The position numbers and the translations under genes were made by a program. DNA of 64,000 bases, from the NCBI GenBank assembly GCA_022447855.1, contig JAKUTX010000008.1:3987-67986 (forward strand), in the 5' to 3' direction. The DNA is from SAR202 cluster bacterium. GTDB lineage: Bacteria > Chloroflexota > Dehalococcoidia > Lucifugimonadales > UBA6927. The notes under the pieces were generated by a model, which made no database searches, was not told the origin of the DNA, and saw only the letters and a list, made by a program, of their open reading frames with translations. Shown here piece after piece: positions 49,898 to 59,037 of the stretch. Positions within the stretch are counted from its first letter, which is position 1, and each line of letters opens with the position of its first letter.

Positions 49898-50737
49898 GTG
49901 GGAATTCATATAAATCGATGGCAAAAAATTGTCCAACAACATCACGAACAATCAATCAAAGCACAGAAAAATTCATTATTTGCTGAGCCTAAGGATTTTT
50001 GGAAACCATTAACTGGTTTCTTTACTCAAGATCCAACTAGAACCTCGGATCCTGAAATTAATGCATTGCTAACTTACATTAAAGAAAATGACACAATCTT
50101 GGATGTTGGTGGCGGTGCTGGCCGATTAGCGCTGCCTATAGCACTAAAAAGTAAACACGTTAACATTGTTGACCCTAGCAAAGGAATGTTAGAAACATTA
50201 ACTAATACTGCCGAAAAGTTTGATATCACAAACATTCATACTACTCATTCAGAGTGGTTAGATACAAATGCAAAAACCGCAACGGTTGTTATTTGTGCTC
50301 ATGTTGTTTATGGCATATTTGAAATCTCGGAATTTATTGACAAGTTGTCATTACATGCTGATAGAGAAGTAATTTTGTTAGCTTTTGATGCTCCTCCAAT
50401 TTCATGGTTATCACCATTTTGGGAATTTGTATACAAAGAAAAAAGAGTAGCCGTTCCTGCATTGAAGGAACTTATGAATATTTTATGGGAAAAGAATATT
50501 TTCCCAGACATTGAAATGATTCAACCAGCTGAAGGCAAAAGACGACAAAGAGGTTACGATAACATAGAAGTTGCGGTAGAAAAAATTGCTCCAAGGATTT
50601 TTGTTTCTAAAGGAACTCCCCAAGAAAAAAACCTACAAAAAGCTATAAAAAAGTTAATGGTCGATACTGGGAATGGCTTAGAAATGATCGATAAAGGCCC
50701 AGAAAGGCATCTAGCAATTATTAGGTGGCTAACCTAA
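49898..50737 (+). CDS. class I SAM-dependent methyltransferase
   Basis: 279 aa. Motif I ILDVGGGAGRLALPIA. GTG start with AAGGTG 7 nt upstream. Confidence 0.75.
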   Translation: MGIHINRWQKIVQQHHEQSIKAQKNSLFAEPKDFWKPLTGFFTQDPTRTSDPEINALLTYIKENDTILDVGGGAGRLALPIALKSKHVNIVDPSKGMLETLTNTAEKFDITNIHTTHSEWLDTNAKTATVVICAHVVYGIFEISEFIDKLSLHADREVILLAFDAPPISWLSPFWEFVYKEKRVAVPALKELMNILWEKNIFPDIEMIQPAEGKRRQRGYDNIEVAVEKIAPRIFVSKGTPQEKNLQKAIKKLMVDTGNGLEMIDKGPERHLAIIRWLT

Positions 50738-50814
50738 GTTTAGGTATAAACAAAATTTTGTTAATTTTGTTTATACTAATATGACTTGAAATCGAAAAAT
50801 TTGCGGAGGAAATA

Positions 50815-51852
50815 TTGACCACTCCAATTTCTAATCCTTCAGAAATACTAGAATTTAATGAATATATCGATGTGATAAATCACTTCATAGATAGTGGTTG
50901 GACTGATGGTTTACCAATTATACCTCCCACTCAAGAATTAGTTGATAATTTTATTAATATCTCTGGAAGATCTGCATCTGAAATCCTTGGATCTGAACCT
51001 ACTAGAGGTAGAATTATTACGGTGGAAAAAGCTGCCATAAATTCTGTAATGGCTGGATGTTTACCCGAATATTTCCCTGTAATTATCGCCGCGTGTGAAG
51101 CGATGTGTGAACCAAAATTCAATCTACATGGAATCACAGCAAGTACGATGGGTGCTGCACCTCTTATATTGGTAAATGGTCCGATTTCTAGTAAATTGAA
51201 AATCAATTCTGGTTTCGGGTTATTCGGACCTGGTCATAGGGCAAACGCTACAATAGGTAGAGCAATCCGTCTTATTATAATTAATGCTACAGGCGCCGTA
51301 CCCGGAATTCTAGACAAAGCCACACTCGGTCATGCGGGGAAATATACTTGGTGTATCTCTGAATCGGAAAGTATTAGTAATTGGGATCCTTTGCAAGTTG
51401 AAAGAGGATTCGACAAATCTCAAAGCACTGTTACTCTATTTGCTGGATTATCTCCGATTCAAATTCAAAACCACGAAAGTAATTCTCCCCAAGGCATTGT
51501 CCAATCTTTTAAAGATGCAATGTTTACTTCTGGTAGTGGTCAGGAAGAAATCATAGTAATCCTCCCAGGTCAACATATGGGTCATATTACAAAATCCAAT
51601 TGGTCTAAAACTAAATTGCAGCAATGCTTTTATGATTCAACAATCAAACAAAATGATATAGAATGGAACAAAGCTTACGCCATGAGGGATTATATACCGG
51701 ACCCAGAATCACCTAAATCCGTAACTAGGTCACCCGAGGGAATTACTATTGTCCCAGCGGGTGGAGAAGCTGGTGGGTTCGCGCAACTTATTCCGCTTTG
51801 GGGTGGCGGGTCAAGCTCACAATCAGTGACTAAAGAAATACTAATCAATTAG
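50815..51852 (+). CDS. conserved-looking hypothetical protein (partner of the selenoprotein gene)
   Basis: 345 aa. TTG start with GGAGGA 5 nt upstream. Distinctive blocks WTDGLPIIPPT, HGITASTMGAAP and GPGHRANATIGRAIRL. No family I can name. Confidence 0.6.
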   Translation: MTTPISNPSEILEFNEYIDVINHFIDSGWTDGLPIIPPTQELVDNFINISGRSASEILGSEPTRGRIITVEKAAINSVMAGCLPEYFPVIIAACEAMCEPKFNLHGITASTMGAAPLILVNGPISSKLKINSGFGLFGPGHRANATIGRAIRLIIINATGAVPGILDKATLGHAGKYTWCISESESISNWDPLQVERGFDKSQSTVTLFAGLSPIQIQNHESNSPQGIVQSFKDAMFTSGSGQEEIIVILPGQHMGHITKSNWSKTKLQQCFYDSTIKQNDIEWNKAYAMRDYIPDPESPKSVTRSPEGITIVPAGGEAGGFAQLIPLWGGGSSSQSVTKEILIN

Positions 51853-51861
51853 GAGCATTTA

Positions 51862-52392
51862 ATGACTACCAAAATTAAAGTATTGAATCCCACTGTAAAA
51901 CCAATTTCTGAAGCTGGATTCCTTGCAAAACGACCTTCAAACTTAAAAGGTAAAAATTTGGGTCTTTTAGCTAATGGGAAAGAAAATTCTGAAGAATTGC
52001 TAGCATCAATTTCTGAAGTACTCTCAGACCATTTCGAATTCGGATCAATTATTAAAAGAAATAAAGGAAATGCTTCCAGGCCTTGCCCTGATAATTTAGT
52101 AGAAGAAATGGCAGAAGAGTGTGATGTAATCATAACTTCTAATGGTGACTGAGGTTCCTGTTCTTCGTGCAGTGTGTACGACGCCGTCGCATTTGAAAAA
52201 CTCAATGTTCCAGCTGCAGTAATTTGCACCGAACCATTTATATCTAGTGGAAAAGCAATGCTAGAAATTGTAAATCTTCCCGAATATCCTATGGCAATTG
52301 TTCCTCATCCAATAGGAAGTTTAAGCAAATCTGAATTGCGGGAAATGGCTATGAAAATAGCTCCTGAAATCATACAAATTTTGACAGACTGA
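51862..52392 (+). CDS. putative selenoprotein with U-G-S-C motif (TGA at 52150-52152 read as selenocysteine)
   Basis: Track ORFs 51862..52152 and 52174..52392 are in one frame, separated by a single TGA. Read-through gives ...ECDVIITSNGD-U-GSCSSCSVYDAVAFEKL... (176 aa). AGGAG lies 6 nt before the ATG. A hairpin follows the TGA. Confidence 0.7.
52165..52181 (+). promoter_or_regulatory. candidate bacterial SECIS hairpin
   Basis: UCGUGC-AGUGU-GUACGA, a 6-bp stem with a 5-nt G/U-containing loop, starting 13 nt after the UGA. Confidence 0.4.
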
Positions 52393-52402
52393 CCTTCAAA
52401 AA

Positions 52403-52687
52403 TTAGTCTGTTGAAAACCTTTGAGATTCCGGAGGCGTAGCCCACAATTCTTCAGCGCCTTTCATAGCCACAGATCGTTCTGGACTTCCTTTCCATTTAT
52501 CATAAATCTCTTCATTTTCCCAAATTACTAATGAAGTAATTTGGTTCGGATCTGATAAAGAATATAATGTACGTCGATGAACAAAACCTGGAGCCTTGCT
52601 TTGAGCTTCTCCATTTCCCTTTAACAAAGTATCTGCTTTTAAAAAGCAATCATTTTTAGCCCAATGATGAGTCAAAACACCTATCAT
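52403..52687 (-). CDS. ABM (antibiotic biosynthesis monooxygenase)-like small protein
   Basis: 94 aa. Ferredoxin-like pattern with SLVIWENEEIYDKWKGSPER, typical of ABM/Dabb domains. Confidence 0.5.
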   Translation of the reverse strand: MIGVLTHHWAKNDCFLKADTLLKGNGEAQSKAPGFVHRRTLYSLSDPNQITSLVIWENEEIYDKWKGSPERSVAMKGAEELWATPPESQRFSTD

Positions 52688-52788: not shown

Positions 52789-53874
52789 ATGCCCACTCTA
52801 ACTGAACATGATATGCAACGAATTGCGTTTTCAATTCTTCACGCAGCAGGTGCACCAGAAGCACATGCAAAAACTGTAAGTGATCATTTGTCCTTGGCTA
52901 ATTTGTCAGGTCATGATTCACATGGATTTATAAGAATAATGCAGTATATACGTGATATTAAAAACGGAGGAGTTGTTCCCGATGCCAATCCTGAAACTGT
53001 CTTAGATTTCCAAGCGATTGCGCAATTAGACGGGAAAAAATCTTTTGGCCAAGTTGCAATGACTGCTGCAACAAAACTTGCAATTGAAAAAGCAAGAAAA
53101 TTTGGTATAGGAATGATCACAGTTAAAAACCTAGGCCATACTGGTCGCATAGGAACATATAATGAAATGATAGCCAGAGAAAACATGGTAGGACTAGTAT
53201 GTACTGGTTTTGCAGGAGCCAGTCAGGGAATCGTTTCCCCATTCGGAGGAAAGACAGGCAAACTAGGAACAAATCCAATTTCCTACACATTCCCTTCTGA
53301 TGAAGAAGGACCAATATTGCTAGATATGGCTACGAGTGTTGGAGCTGAAGGAAAACTTAGAGTATATAGAGCCAGAGGCCACGATCTTCCAGATAAATGG
53401 GTTTTAGACAGTGAAGGCAATCCTAGTGAAAATCCAAACGATTTTTACGAAGGAGGCGCAATTTTACCTGTCGGAGGTCTAGCAGGTGGCCATAAGGGAT
53501 TTGGGTTAGGTATGGTTGCTACCATATTGGGAGCAGTAATGGCAGAAACTGGTGATGACTCTGAAGGAACTGGAAGTATTTACGATGGTGGCGATGGTGG
53601 AATTAATGGATCGACCGTAATTGCAATCAATGCCGAAGCACTAGGACCAATCGATGAGACTAAGAAACGAATTAGCAACTTTGTGAAATTCTTAAAGGAT
53701 GTCGAACCAATGGATGGATCCGAAGGAGTCTTATATCCTGGTGAAGTAGAAATAAGAAACAGAGTTAACAAACGTGCATCAGGAGTCGAAATAGAAGACG
53801 CTACTTGGAATCAAGTTTGCGAACTAATTGATGAATATAATGTACGCGCAGAACTAGAACCTCTCCCAAATTAA
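52789..53874 (+). CDS. Ldh_2-family (malate/L-lactate/sulfolactate dehydrogenase type 2) oxidoreductase
   Basis: 361 aa. SGHDSHG, LGTNPIS and GGHKGFGLG motifs. Confidence 0.85.
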   Translation: MPTLTEHDMQRIAFSILHAAGAPEAHAKTVSDHLSLANLSGHDSHGFIRIMQYIRDIKNGGVVPDANPETVLDFQAIAQLDGKKSFGQVAMTAATKLAIEKARKFGIGMITVKNLGHTGRIGTYNEMIARENMVGLVCTGFAGASQGIVSPFGGKTGKLGTNPISYTFPSDEEGPILLDMATSVGAEGKLRVYRARGHDLPDKWVLDSEGNPSENPNDFYEGGAILPVGGLAGGHKGFGLGMVATILGAVMAETGDDSEGTGSIYDGGDGGINGSTVIAINAEALGPIDETKKRISNFVKFLKDVEPMDGSEGVLYPGEVEIRNRVNKRASGVEIEDATWNQVCELIDEYNVRAELEPLPN

Positions 53875-58326: not shown

Positions 58327-59037
58327 TTATTGACTGGCATAGAGCATTACCCTTCGCAGAACACTCTCACCTCTCGCACCAGAAAATTGCAAATCTAAAT
58401 TACCCGCTTTATCAATCAACCTAAAAGAAGGTACACCTTCCACCCCATATTTCTTTGCAATTAAATTCCCTTCATCCCAACCTGTAGGAATCATAAATTT
58501 TTGTTCATTATAAAAGTTTGACGCCTCTTCAAACTCTGAGAGTATTGCTATTCCAAGTACATCTACACCTGACTCCAAGAATTCTAAATACAGTGACTCA
58601 ACCACTGGCATTTCTTTATGGCAATATGGACACCATGGGGCCCAAAAGACCAATAAAATAGGTCTGCCATTTTGATCCAAAACATCAAATTGAGTTTGAT
58701 CGAAAAGTTCTAGTGTAAATTCAGGAGCTGGGTCAAGATCAGGAATTGGATAAGGAGGCGAGGATGGACTATTTGTAGAACCATTCTTAACCTCAGGAGT
58801 AGGATTTGTATTTGAAGCAATTGTAGGAGAAGGAGCAATTGTAGGAGAAGGCGCAGGTGTTGTAGTAGTCTCAAATGATGGAATAATAGTAGCCAAAATC
58901 CCTGATTTTATAGGATCAGATTGAATCATCTCAGAATCATCGATCTTATCAGCTCCATTAGAAGAGTTAGATGAGCAACTATTCAGTAATAACAAAAAAA
59001 GTAATGGTGTAAAAAGGACTATTTTGTTTTTATTCAA
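58327..59037 (-). CDS. TlpA/ResA-like thiol:disulfide oxidoreductase lipoprotein
   Basis: 236 aa. Signal peptide ending LLNSC, Pro/Ser/Thr linker with duplicated APSPTI, thioredoxin motif FWAPWCPYC. Confidence 0.8.
   Translation of the reverse strand: MNKNKIVLFTPLLFLLLLNSCSSNSSNGADKIDDSEMIQSDPIKSGILATIIPSFETTTTPAPSPTIAPSPTIASNTNPTPEVKNGSTNSPSSPPYPIPDLDPAPEFTLELFDQTQFDVLDQNGRPILLVFWAPWCPYCHKEMPVVESLYLEFLESGVDVLGIAILSEFEEASNFYNEQKFMIPTGWDEGNLIAKKYGVEGVPSFRLIDKAGNLDLQFSGARGESVLRRVMLYASQ

What the first reader, a model, noticed from the sequence alone, without database searches (positions are those of the whole stretch)
49898..52392. Methyltransferase, 345-aa unknown and selenoprotein form a compact operon of unknown function
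- Three co-directional genes each have a strong RBS: a SAM methyltransferase (49898-50737), a 345-aa protein I cannot assign (50815-51852; blocks WTDGLPIIPPT, HGITASTMGAAP, GPGHRANATIGRAIRL), and the U-G-S-C protein.
- The U-G-S-C gene starts only 9 nt after the 345-aa gene's stop.
- This tight coupling suggests the two act together, possibly as a redox enzyme with its Sec-containing partner.
- The neighbours (lutABC upstream, ABM-like and Ldh_2 genes downstream) hint at small-organic-acid metabolism. That link is only positional.
Basis: inference. Interest (0 to 1): 0.6.

Follow-up and report, generated by a model that had tools for sequence, protein, structure and literature searches.

The report
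Orphan selenoprotein with its obligate partner
The 345-aa unknown protein and the UGSC selenoprotein are a widespread, almost always adjacent or fused pair whose chemistry is unknown, so one of the ocean's most abundant orphan selenoproteins now has a testable partner, while the methyltransferase is only a local neighbour.

Summary
There are three co-directional genes, and the 345-aa gene (P345) and the UGSC selenoprotein gene lie 9 nt apart. The in-frame UGA at 52150-52152 is followed by a conserved, covarying SECIS hairpin.

- **Pairing.** The conserved unit is two genes, not three. In 80 species genomes, 67 of 86 P345 copies have a UGSC gene within 400 bp on the same strand, and its Sec codon is TGA in 71 of 72. 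In 80 metagenome loci chosen through Cys-type UGSC, 74 have P345 adjacent and none is a clear exception.
- **Fusions.** About 40 of the top 150 P345 cluster representatives are fusions. These are UGSC-P345, P345-UGSC, or a thioredoxin-fold CxxC domain joined to P345.
- **Annotation.** P345 matches no Pfam, NCBIfam or PDB entry. C82 and R149 are nearly invariant.
- **UGSC relatives.** UGSC is a known orphan family. It looks like a remote relative of the Sec-bearing segment of the Stickland reductase subunits GrdB and PrdB, with Sec aligned on Sec.
- **Thioredoxin link.** Thioredoxin or thioredoxin reductase genes flank the pair in a few genomes.
- **Most likely function (inferred).** A two-subunit thiol/selenol reductase of unknown substrate.
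- **Neighbours.** The methyltransferase, ABM and Ldh_2 genes are conserved only in close relatives.

The parts
50815..51852 (+). P345: a 345-aa protein of an unannotated family and the proposed catalytic or substrate-binding subunit. Key conserved residues are D31, G81-C82, N144, R149, C180 and E183.
   Evidence: It has no Pfam or NCBIfam hit and no PDB sequence hit. The AlphaFold2 model has pLDDT 84 and pTM 0.87, with no significant PDB fold match. The family has 6649 cluster representatives at E<=1e-3.
51862..52392 (+). UGSC-family selenoprotein, 176 aa including Sec97, with the motif U97-G-S-C100-S-S-C103.
   Evidence: It matches PF24696 at 1.1e-49 and NF041046 at 135 bits against a cut-off of 125. 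Weak hits to GrdB and PrdB models recur across the family. hhalign places Sec on Sec of PrdB-like proteins.
52150..52152 (+). In-frame UGA read as selenocysteine (Sec97).
   Evidence: The codon is TGA in 71 of 72 homologous genes and TGC in one. The reading frame is conserved on both sides of it.
52165..52181 (+). SECIS hairpin: stems at 52165-52171 and 52175-52181 with a GUG loop, starting 13 nt after the UGA.
   Evidence: The hairpin is predicted in nearly all 71 homologues. On alignment A2, 5 of 9 pairs show changes on both sides and 85% of cells are paired, against 18-57% when slid. No Rfam family matches it.
51851..51861 (+). Junction between the two genes. The AGGAG ribosome-binding site overlaps the P345 stop codon, and the spacer is 9 nt, an arrangement compatible with translational coupling.
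   Evidence: Read directly from the sequence.
49898..50737 (+). Class-I SAM methyltransferase. It is a neighbour, not part of the conserved pair.
   Evidence: It gives only generic methyltransferase hits. It is adjacent to the pair only in close relatives. Related methyltransferases lie 1.6-3 kb from the pair in L005 and L090.
50744..50776 (.). Perfect 14-nt inverted repeat (GTATAAACAAAATT, 5 nt, AATTTTGTTTATAC) between the methyltransferase and P345. It may be a terminator or an operator.
   Evidence: Found. The consensus terminator scan did not call it.
52403..52687 (-). ABM-domain protein of 94 aa, convergent with the UGSC gene and 10 nt from its stop. It is a clade-specific neighbour.
   Evidence: It matches PF03992 at 1e-5. 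It lies convergent with UGSC in L001 and L002 as well, where P345 sits 2.6 kb away. In L081-L084 it lies 2.5-5.5 kb from UGSC.
52789..53874 (+). Ldh_2-family oxidoreductase of 361 aa. It is a clade-specific neighbour.
   Evidence: It matches PF02615 at 2e-101. Among the 80 species-genome loci it is found next to the pair only in L003.

Best explanation
**Shown.** P345 (50815-51852) and the UGSC selenoprotein (51862-52392) are the two parts of one conserved module. The two genes are almost always adjacent and are often fused into a single polypeptide. They occur across many bacterial phyla and in haloarchaea.

**Inferred: how it works.**
- The module is a thiol/selenol-dependent oxidoreductase.
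- P345 is a family with no annotated relatives and carries the substrate site. That site is probably built around the nearly invariant Cys82, Arg149, Glu183, Asn144 and Asp31. Cys82 sits at the N-terminus of a helix in the model.
- UGSC is predicted to be a small flavodoxin-like alpha/beta domain. Its Sec97-x-x-Cys100 dyad lies at a helix N-terminus.
- That dyad would resolve a covalent or oxidised intermediate on Cys82 or on the bound substrate, ending as a Se-S bond.
- The Se-S bond would then be re-reduced by thioredoxin or a similar dithiol.

**Unknown.** The substrate is not identified. Gene contexts differ between clades and suggest small-molecule catabolism, with different paralogues possibly taking different substrates.

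**Not part of the module.** The methyltransferase, ABM and Ldh_2 genes.
For: **Pairing.**
- 67 of 86 P345 copies in 80 species genomes have UGSC within 400 bp on the same strand.
- 74 of 80 loci chosen through Cys-type UGSC have P345 adjacent. The other six are too short on at least one side to decide.

**Fusions among the top 150 representatives.**
- Nine are full-length UGSC-P345 fusions.
- About 20 more are UGSC-P345 fusions cut at the TGA by gene callers.
- Four are P345-UGSC fusions.
- Sec-containing fusions of 530-539 aa also occur inside genomes.
- The fusion P0321 models confidently as one unit, with pLDDT 93.4 and pTM 0.93.

**Redox role.**
- U/C-x-x-C is invariant in alignment A4.
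- The Sec codon is TGA in 71 of 72 genes.
- Eight of the top 150 representatives matched the AhpC/TSA-like N-terminal region of P0280 in place of UGSC. Pfam confirmed AhpC/TSA in the two that were scanned, P0280 (motif CATC) and P0306 (motif CPTT).
- Arthrobacter carries the operon trxB-trxA-P345-UGSC.
- Roseovarius carries P345-UGSC-trxB.
- A trxA-like gene lies 0.4-1.2 kb downstream of UGSC on the opposite strand in L004, L005, L007 and L008.
- A trxB gene lies near the pair in L163.
- A DsbA-like gene lies upstream in SAR202 relatives.

**P345 site.** G81 and R149 are 100% conserved, E183 99%, C82 and N144 98%, and D31 96% in 131 diverse representatives.

**Homology of UGSC to selenoprotein B.**
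- 13 of 31 UGSC proteins hit the GrdB model TIGR01917, the best at 4.5e-6. The GrdF, GrdH and PrdB models are also hit, and no other family recurs.
- hhalign against marine PrdB-like proteins gives P=0.002 with Sec on Sec. Controls give P about 0.4.
- GrdB carries a UxxCxxC motif (PMC13188914). The window protein reads UGSCSSC.
Against: - No biochemical data exist, and the substrate and reaction are unknown.
- Neither P345 cysteine is absolute. C82 is Ala in 4 of 145 copies, including three Sec-type fusions. C180 is Val in 19.
- In the Vibrio europaeus and Sporomusa termitida fusions the UGSC-like domain has lost its redox motif (GDMGTS), yet P345 keeps both cysteines. The redox dyad is therefore dispensable in some lineages.
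- Thirteen of the 86 P345 copies have no UGSC within 6 kb: seven Poribacteria loci and six Dehalococcoidia loci.
- Thioredoxin-system genes are near the pair in only a minority of loci.
- The homology to GrdB and PrdB is weak and far below the family cut-offs.
- I could not read model coordinates, so the proximity of Sec97 to Cys82 is untested.
Confidence: 0.55

Rival explanations
1. Stickland-type mechanism. P345 plays the role of PrdA or GrdE by binding and activating a substrate. Sec97 of UGSC attacks the substrate carbon directly and cleaves a C-N, C-S or C-O bond reductively through a selenoether. Cys100 then releases the product by forming a Se-S bond.
For: - UGSC is the closest, though remote, relative of the Sec-bearing segment of GrdB, GrdF, GrdH and PrdB, with Sec aligned on Sec and the same UxxC(xxC) motif (PMC13188914).
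- Sec is used almost exclusively, in 71 of 72 genes.
- PrdB likewise needs a tightly bound partner, and the U151C variant is inactive (PMC11229817).
- Glycine reductase is also fed by thioredoxin (PMC13188914), and trxB and trxA flank the pair in some genomes.
- In one soil clade the pair sits between an NDMA-dependent alcohol dehydrogenase and a short MetE-like thiol alkyltransferase. That arrangement would fit cleavage of a keto-thioether.
Against: - P345 shows no similarity to PrdA or GrdE. No Pfam or NCBIfam hit appears for any of 54 members even at E<=10, and hhalign of P345 against PrdB-like proteins gives P=0.19.
- No pyruvoyl-type self-cleavage is shown.
- A generic thioredoxin-fold CxxC domain can replace UGSC in fusions. 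That fits an electron-donor role better than direct catalysis.
- Cys-type UGSC is common in organisms that lack Sec.
Confidence: 0.2
2. The chemistry is not redox. P345 is a cysteine-dependent hydrolase, isomerase, racemase or dehydratase. The UGSC domain is a structural or regulatory subunit whose selenol/thiol dyad only senses or gates activity.
For: - The Vibrio and Sporomusa fusions keep the UGSC-like fold but have lost U/C-x-x-C, while P345 keeps C82 and C180.
- Other fusions also have degenerate motifs, namely P0330 and P0296.
- Poribacteria keep P345 with no UGSC nearby.
- Neighbouring genes are mostly catabolic enzymes: amidohydrolases, aldolases, CoA-transferases and aconitase X.
Against: - U/C-x-x-C is invariant in the great majority of copies, and Sec is maintained at a high decoding cost.
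- A CxxC thioredoxin-fold domain substitutes for UGSC.
- Thioredoxin-system genes lie in the same operons in Arthrobacter and Roseovarius.
Confidence: 0.12
3. One reading: the methyltransferase, P345 and UGSC form one three-gene operon acting in a single pathway linked to small organic acids through lutABC, ABM and Ldh_2.
For: - The three genes are co-directional and have ribosome-binding sites.
- The same gene order is kept in the 86%-identical lineage.
- Related methyltransferases lie within 3 kb of the pair in L005 and L090.
- ABM is also convergent with UGSC in L001 and L002.
Against: - Among 80 species-genome loci, a methyltransferase homologue is found only in L005, an ABM homologue only in L001 and L002, and an Ldh_2 homologue only in L003.
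- The flanking genes are heterogeneous.
- A 77-nt gap holding a perfect 14-nt inverted repeat separates the methyltransferase from P345.
- lutABC is on the opposite strand.
Confidence: 0.08
4. Artefact: the TGA at 52150 is a true stop codon, so the region holds two small unrelated ORFs or a pseudogene. Public gene calls show exactly this, with pieces of 96 aa and 72 or 44 aa.
For: Public annotations split the gene in two.
Against: - The TGA is conserved in 71 of 72 orthologues across phyla, with the protein conserved on both sides.
- A covarying SECIS hairpin follows it.
- Full-length Cys-type homologues exist.
- The Pfam model spans the whole protein, residues 7-175.
Confidence: 0.01

Closest known systems
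UGSC family (seleno)protein (Pfam PF24696, NCBIfam NF041046): the 'UGSC-containing protein' of Zhang and Gladyshev
   Same: - The window protein is a full member. It scores above both curated cut-offs, has the U-G-S-C motif, and uses Sec.
[quoted passage not shown]
   Different: [quoted passage not shown] They record only a fusion with an unnamed domain, 'Unknown_1', shown as an image I could not read (PMC2398784, PMC1976440, PMC13188914).
- New here are the obligate partner family and the recurring weak similarity to GrdB and PrdB.
- The predicted fold is flavodoxin-like rather than thioredoxin-like. That prediction comes from a model of a homologous fusion, not of the window protein.
Selenoprotein B of the Stickland reductases (GrdB, GrdF, GrdH and PrdB) with their pyruvoyl partners GrdE and PrdA
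   Same: - Both have a small Sec subunit with UxxC(xxC) at the equivalent position. The surrounding element is also shared: a beta-strand, U-x-x-C, a helix, then E..(I/V)P and a second beta-strand.
- Both need a tightly associated second subunit.
- A thioredoxin-system link occurs in some operons.
   Different: - UGSC is 176 aa, against about 240 aa for PrdB and about 436 aa for GrdB.
- Its scores are far below the family cut-offs, 16.9 bits against 602.
- The partner P345 is unrelated to GrdE or PrdA by every sequence test I ran.
- No GrdA, GrdC, GrdD, PrdC or PrdH family hit appears among the flanking genes scanned.
- The hosts are largely aerobic or facultative marine and soil lineages and haloarchaea, not amino-acid fermenters.
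Thioredoxin-fold redox partners fused to or encoded beside their client enzymes, such as Trx/Msr and AhpC/TSA-like domains
   Same: - A U/CxxC dyad sits at a helix N-terminus.
- An AhpC/TSA-like CxxC domain replaces UGSC in some P345 fusions.
- trxA and trxB neighbours occur.
   Different: - UGSC is not thioredoxin-like in the model. Its strands and helices alternate, and its best fold matches are lumazine synthase and CheY-like domains with TM about 0.5.
- The client, P345, is an undescribed family.

Membership tests
UGSC family (PF24696 / NF041046) | Profile score above the curated cut-off over the full length | tested here: met
   PF24696 scores 169.4 bits against a cut-off of 25, covering residues 7-175. 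NF041046 scores 135.1 bits against a cut-off of 125.
UGSC family (PF24696 / NF041046) | U/C-G-S-C motif | tested here: met
   The window protein reads GD-U-GSCSSC at residues 95-103. U/C97, G98 and C100 are invariant in 31 aligned members.
Bacterial selenoprotein gene (Sec recoding) | In-frame UGA conserved among orthologues, with coding conservation downstream | tested here: met
   The codon is TGA in 71 of 72 genes, and tblastn alignments run across it.
Bacterial selenoprotein gene (Sec recoding) | SECIS stem-loop a short distance downstream of the UGA, with G and U in the apical loop | tested here: met
   The hairpin lies at 52165-52181 with a GUG loop, and the loop starts 19 nt after the UGA. 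Five of 9 pairs show compensatory changes. The expected spacing and loop rule are from my own knowledge of bacterial SECIS models and were not checked against a paper here.
Bacterial selenoprotein gene (Sec recoding) | Sec machinery (tRNA-Sec, SelA, SelB, SelD) in the same genome | not testable with these tools
   The 64-kb window has no tRNA-Sec. The rest of the genome is not available.
Selenoprotein B family (GrdB/GrdF/GrdH/PrdB; TIGR01917, TIGR01918, TIGR04483) | Profile score above the family cut-off | tested here: not met
   TIGR01917 scores 16.9 bits against a cut-off of 602. TIGR01918 scores 13.5 against 65. TIGR04483 scores 12.7 against 300. UGSC is a remote relative at most.
Selenoprotein B family (GrdB/GrdF/GrdH/PrdB; TIGR01917, TIGR01918, TIGR04483) | Sec in a UxxC(xxC) motif at the homologous position | tested here: met
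   hmmsearch and hhalign put Sec97 on the Sec of marine PrdB-like proteins. hhalign gives P=0.0019, and controls give P about 0.4. The GrdB motif UxxCxxC is from PMC13188914.
Selenoprotein B family (GrdB/GrdF/GrdH/PrdB; TIGR01917, TIGR01918, TIGR04483) | Pyruvoyl proprotein partner (GrdE or PrdA) encoded alongside | tested here: not met
   The adjacent partner is P345. It has no Pfam or NCBIfam hit at E<=10 in any of 54 members. Whether P345 forms a pyruvoyl group cannot be tested here.
Thioredoxin-like fold (the literature's suggestion for UGSC) | Thioredoxin fold topology | tested here: inconclusive
   In the AlphaFold2 model of the homologous fusion P0321, the UGSC domain has alternating strands and helices. 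Its best PDB matches are flavodoxin-like folds (lumazine synthase, TM about 0.5, E about 4e-3) and not thioredoxins. The window's own UGSC protein was not modelled.
Three-gene operon (methyltransferase + P345 + UGSC) | The methyltransferase is conserved alongside the pair | tested here: not met
   A methyltransferase homologue appears in 1 of 80 species-genome loci and is not adjacent there. It is adjacent only in the nearly identical contigs and the 86%-identical lineage.

The most novel reading that the evidence does not exclude
P345-UGSC is a previously unrecognised class of selenol-dependent reductase that brings Stickland-type chemistry into aerobic marine and soil bacteria and haloarchaea. 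In that chemistry Sec attacks a bound substrate and cleaves a C-N, C-S or C-O bond reductively. The Sec module would be derived from the GrdB/PrdB lineage, while the substrate-binding subunit has a new fold. The many paralogous pairs in SAR202, Rokubacteria and related groups would then be a diversified toolkit for breaking down recalcitrant small organic molecules.
Probability: 0.2. Interest if true: 0.85.

Novelty: new variant of a known kind. Interest (0 to 1): 0.62.

Why it matters
[quoted passage not shown] It has been listed as of unknown function since 2007-2008 and still is in a 2026 review (PMC1976440, PMC2398784, PMC13188914).
- The results show that UGSC is half of a two-protein, often fused, module whose other half belongs to a very large family with no annotation.
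- They also show that UGSC resembles the Sec-bearing segment of GrdB and PrdB.
- Together these turn an orphan into a testable enzyme system.
- Cultured hosts carry Cys-type versions that are easy to express: Arthrobacter sp. ERGS1:01, Roseovarius sp. THAF8, and possibly Paracoccus versutus, where the UGSC partner was not checked.
- The finding also flags a systematic annotation error, because the gene is split at the Sec codon in public records.

Tried and rejected
**Annotating P345 (no result).**
- Pfam and NCBIfam scans of P345 and of 54 family members, run up to E=10, gave no recurring hit.
- A PDB sequence-profile search gave nothing.
- Foldseek of the P345 model against the PDB gave no match at E<=1e-3. 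The best hits had TM of 0.25 or less: class-I fumarate hydratase, IRG1/PrpD and cyanuric acid hydrolase. I treat these as non-informative.
- hhalign of P345 against marine PrdB-like proteins gave P=0.19, so I rejected the idea that P345 matches the N-terminal part of selenoprotein B.

**UGSC (limited result).**
- PDB sequence searches with UGSC alone and as a profile found nothing relevant, and no GrdB or PrdB chain was matched.
- The Pfam scan of 31 UGSC members at E<=1 returned no hit to any glycine or proline reductase family. Only the NCBIfam models did.
- Rfam has no family matching the SECIS hairpin.

**Looking for a conserved third gene (none found).**
- 138 flanking ORFs from the 80 species genomes hit 130 Pfam families, and no family was hit more than 4 times.
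- Thioredoxin-system neighbours are real but in the minority.
- A four-gene cluster (NDMA-type alcohol dehydrogenase, UGSC, P345, MetE-like) is confined to one soil clade whose members are closely related, so its count is inflated by relatedness.
- ComA-like genes lie near the pair in Arthrobacter and Natrinema but in none of the 160 other loci.

**Other limits.**
- Fe-S binding by U/CxxCxxC was considered and set aside, because the third cysteine is not conserved (G, S, W, A, R and N variants).
- Figure S1A of the 2008 paper, which shows the 'Unknown_1' fusion, is held only as an image. I could not check whether Unknown_1 is P345 or the NifU-like domain.
- Model coordinates are not exposed, so inter-residue distances could not be measured.


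Full report
**1. What is in the window.** The region holds three co-directional genes on the + strand.
- A class-I SAM methyltransferase lies at 49898-50737. It has a GTG start and gives only generic Pfam and NCBIfam hits.
- A 345-aa ORF, here called P345, lies at 50815-51852. It has a TTG start with GGAGG 5 nt upstream.
- A UGSC-family gene lies at 51862-52392. Its ribosome-binding site overlaps the P345 stop codon, and only 9 nt separate the two genes.
- Read through the TGA at 52150-52152, the UGSC gene is one 176-codon frame (…SNGD-U-GSCSSCSVYD…). It matches PF24696 (1.1e-49, residues 7-175) and NF041046 (135 bits against a cut-off of 125).
- The window is nearly identical to a Tara Oceans Chloroflexi metagenome-assembled genome, GCA_002727595.1. 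The encoded P345 is 99% identical. There the UGSC gene is annotated as two fragments of 96 and 72 aa.

**2. The UGA is a selenocysteine codon.**
- In 80 loci from one-genome-per-species collections, the aligned codon is TGA in 71 of 72 UGSC genes and TGC in one. The protein is conserved on both sides.
- A hairpin starts 13 nt after the UGA (window 52165-52181, UCGUGCA-GUG-UGUACGA) and is predicted in nearly all homologues.
- On the 71-sequence alignment A2, 5 of its 9 pairs show changes on both sides. 85% of cells are paired, against 18-57% when the 3' partners are slid. No shuffle out of 500 reaches the observed covariation score.
- The gene's own terminator is an ordinary TGA, so TGA is not generally read as sense in this genome.
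- No tRNA-Sec lies in the window, and no Rfam family matches the hairpin.

**3. The conserved unit is the P345-UGSC pair.**
- P345 belongs to a very large family. More than 6500 clusters at 90% identity match it at E<=1e-3, from the 8000 candidates scored. A profile search finds 6649 representatives at 50% identity.
- No Pfam, NCBIfam or PDB sequence match exists for the window protein or for any of 54 members, even at E=10.
- In the 80 species-genome loci, 67 of 86 P345 copies have a UGSC gene within 400 bp on the same strand. Four more have one within 0.6-2.6 kb.
- These loci come from Dehalococcoidia, Ktedonobacteria, Methylomirabilota/Rokubacteria, SAR324, Poribacteria, Pseudomonadales, Burkholderiales, Acidobacteria, Dormibacterota, Actinomycetota and Alphaproteobacteria.
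- The reverse test used 80 metagenome loci picked only by a Cys-type UGSC pattern. Of these, 74 have P345 adjacent on the same strand, 5 are too short to tell, 1 has room on one side only, and none is a clear counter-example.
- Among the top 150 P345 representatives, about 40 are fusions.
  - Nine are full-length UGSC-P345 fusions.
  - About 20 are UGSC-P345 fusions cut at the Sec codon by gene callers.
  - Four are P345-UGSC fusions.
  - Eight matched the AhpC/TSA-like N-terminal region of P0280 in place of UGSC. Pfam confirmed AhpC/TSA in the two that were scanned, P0280 (CATC motif) and P0306 (CPTT motif).
- Sec-containing fusions of 530-539 aa also sit beside unfused pairs in single genomes (L025, L051, L058).
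- Several loci carry two paralogous pairs.
- The pair also occurs in cultured organisms. Natrinema zhouii, a haloarchaeon, has it. Other haloarchaea have P345 matches on plasmids.

**4. The other neighbours are not part of the unit.**
- The genes flanking the pair in the species genomes hit 130 Pfam families among 138 ORFs, and none is hit more than four times.
- The lutABC / methyltransferase / P345 / UGSC / ABM / Ldh_2 order is kept only in the nearly identical contigs and in an 86%-identical lineage.
- Related methyltransferases lie 3 kb and 1.6 kb from the pair in L005 and L090.
- ABM is convergent with UGSC in L001 and L002. Ldh_2 follows the pair in L003.
- A perfect 14-nt inverted repeat (50744-50776) lies in the 77-nt gap between the methyltransferase and P345.
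- Other contexts are specific to single clades.
  - SAR202 relatives have DsbA-like, HpcH aldolase, P345, UGSC.
  - One soil clade has NDMA-type alcohol dehydrogenase (TIGR03989, above its cut-off), UGSC, P345 and a short MetE-like protein.
  - Vibrio europaeus and Sporomusa termitida have aconitase X and DUF126 beside degenerate fusions.

**5. What the two proteins look like.**
- The window's P345 models with pLDDT 84 and pTM 0.87. It has no PDB fold match at E<=1e-3, and the best TM-score is 0.25.
- Across 131 diverse representatives, G81 and R149 are 100% conserved, E183 99%, C82 and N144 98%, D31 96% and C180 92%.
- Across 145 copies in the fetched loci, the six residues D31, C82, N144, R149, C180 and E183 are all present in 118. 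C180 is Val in 19 and C82 is Ala in 4.
- C82 lies between two helices, at the N-terminus of helix 84-97 in the model.
- The natural fusion P0321 (Cys-type UGSC plus P345) models as one compact unit, with pLDDT 93.4 and pTM 0.93.
- Its UGSC domain has alternating strands and helices. Its best PDB matches are flavodoxin-like folds (lumazine synthase, TM about 0.5), not thioredoxins. Its P345 domain again matches nothing.
- Loops that are poorly predicted in the P345 monomer (residues 131-140 and 161-180) are predicted confidently in the fusion. This is suggestive only, because the sequences and alignments differ.

**6. UGSC and the Stickland selenoproteins.**
- Of 31 UGSC proteins, 13 hit the GrdB model TIGR01917, the best at 4.5e-6. 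Eleven hit GrdF, nine hit TIGR01918, nine hit PrdB and six hit GrdH. No unrelated family recurs.
- The hits cover the Sec region, for example window residues 81-166 against model positions 331-412.
- Against marine PrdB-like sequences taken from the supplement of PMC2398784, hmmsearch and hhalign place Sec97 on their Sec. hhalign gives P=0.0019 over 79 columns.
- Controls were not significant. A reversed PrdB alignment gave P=0.42, and UGSC against P345 gave P=0.43.
- GrdB is described as carrying UxxCxxC (PMC13188914), and the window protein reads UGSCSSC.
- All scores are far below the family cut-offs. UGSC is therefore a remote relative of the Sec-bearing segment, not a member of that family.
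- Its partner P345 shows no similarity to the pyruvoyl subunits GrdE or PrdA.

**7. Redox context.**
- Arthrobacter sp. ERGS1:01 has the operon trxB, trxA, P345, UGSC. Its UGSC is Cys-type with a NifU-like C-terminal domain, and the trxA stop overlaps the P345 start.
- Roseovarius sp. THAF8 has LysR, P345, UGSC (Cys-type), trxB.
- A trxA-like gene lies 0.4-1.2 kb downstream of UGSC on the opposite strand in four Dehalococcoidia loci. A trxB gene lies near the pair in one metagenome locus.
- Together with the CxxC-domain fusions, this supports an electron-relay role for the U/CxxC dyad.
- Against a universal redox role, the dyad is lost in the Vibrio and Sporomusa fusions and in P0296 and P0330. 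Thirteen P345 copies also have no UGSC within 6 kb: seven from Poribacteria and six from Dehalococcoidia.

**8. Interpretation.**
- Shown: P345 and UGSC form an obligate module that is often fused. UGSC is a genuine selenoprotein with a SECIS element. The methyltransferase, ABM and Ldh_2 genes are lineage-specific neighbours.
- Inferred: the module is a thiol/selenol oxidoreductase. P345 supplies the substrate site (C82, R149, E183, N144, D31). The Sec-x-x-Cys dyad resolves an intermediate and is recycled by thioredoxin-type reductants.
- Rivals are direct Stickland-type attack by Sec on the substrate and a non-redox enzyme with a structural UGSC subunit.
- The substrate is unknown.

**9. Novelty.**
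- The UGSC family is catalogued, and the papers I could search call it of unknown function (PMC1976440, PMC2398784, PMC9312934, PMC13188914).
- The 2008 paper notes a fusion with an unnamed 'Unknown_1' domain that may or may not be P345. That figure is held only as an image.
- I found no description of the partner family, of the pairing statistics, or of the relation to GrdB and PrdB.
- I therefore file this as a new variant of a known kind: a Sec subunit working with a partner subunit in a reductase. The window locus is a typical member of that module.

Noticed in passing
window 50744-50776: A perfect 14-nt inverted repeat (GTATAAACAAAATT, 5 nt, AATTTTGTTTATAC) lies in the 77-nt gap between the methyltransferase and P345. 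It is AT-only, so the consensus terminator scan did not call it. It could be a terminator or an operator.
   Followed up: partly
window 52165-52181 and alignment A2, columns 19 and 29: The SECIS stem lies inside the codons for residues 102-107. RNA pairing therefore couples amino-acid choices: TGC (Cys103) pairs with CAC/TAC (His/Tyr106), and GGC (Gly103) pairs with CTC (Leu106). The third cysteine of UxxCxxC is thus constrained by RNA structure as well as by the protein.
   Followed up: partly
window 51862-52392; loci L085-L090: Public gene calls split the UGSC gene at the Sec codon into a 96-98 aa piece and a 44-74 aa piece. One cluster representative (P0121) carries Trp at the Sec position (GDWGSC), which looks like a TGA read as Trp. 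Fusion proteins are likewise cut short at the TGA in protein databases.
   Followed up: yes
proteins P0280, P0306, P0313, P0339, P0372, P0378, P0381: These are P345 fusions whose N-terminal domain is AhpC/TSA-like (thioredoxin fold, with CATC or CPTT motifs) instead of UGSC. Pfam confirmed the domain only for P0280 and P0306.
   Followed up: partly
proteins P0241, P0244, P0246, P0247, P0255, P0265 (about 710-740 aa): These proteins contain two or three matched stretches of the P345 profile and no other Pfam domain. They look like tandem duplications of P345.
   Followed up: no
L094 5323-7008 (Vibrio europaeus plasmid) and L095 5380-7104 (Sporomusa termitida plasmid): These are divergent UGSC-P345 fusions of 561 and 574 aa in which the redox motif has decayed to GDMGTS. 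In both, unrelated hosts though they are, the fusion lies next to aconitase X and DUF126 genes. Sporomusa also has a LysR regulator gene directly upstream, while Vibrio has a differently annotated helix-turn-helix regulator further downstream.
   Followed up: partly
L032, L033, L039, L041, L047, L052, L054 (Poribacteria): These shorter P345 homologues (315 aa in L032, lacking residues ~282-303) have no UGSC within 6 kb. In L032 the neighbours are a 493-aa ORF that resembles MlrC-type peptidases by eye (not scanned) and an aldo/keto reductase.
   Followed up: partly
L096-L175 (soil metagenome loci), for example L099 2881-6946: A four-gene cluster recurs in one Cys-type clade: an NDMA-dependent (nicotinoprotein-type) alcohol dehydrogenase (TIGR03989, above its cut-off), UGSC, P345, and a short MetE-like protein (PRK06520). 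The alcohol dehydrogenase is found in 22 loci and the MetE-like gene in 14.
   Followed up: partly
L091 4725-5513 (Arthrobacter) and L092 3892-4359 (Natrinema); window 52789-53874: Phosphosulfolactate synthase (ComA-family) genes lie near the pair in an actinobacterium and a haloarchaeon. The window's Ldh_2 protein has a sub-threshold best match to L-sulfolactate dehydrogenase (222 bits against a cut-off of 500). This may hint at sulfonate or thiol-cofactor metabolism, or it may be coincidence.
   Followed up: partly
proteins P0126, P0127, P0133, P0145, P0169, P0200, P0208, P0225, P0234; L091 8054-8869: Cys-type UGSC proteins, those with a named source being actinobacterial, carry a C-terminal extension of about 90 aa with its own CxxC motif (PF01106 NifU-like annotated in four of the nine listed). 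This may be the 'Unknown_1' fusion reported in 2008.
   Followed up: partly
window 58327-59037 (-): A 236-aa predicted lipoprotein with a thioredoxin-like WCPYC motif (TlpA/ResA type by eye) lies downstream. It is not a selenoprotein.
   Followed up: no
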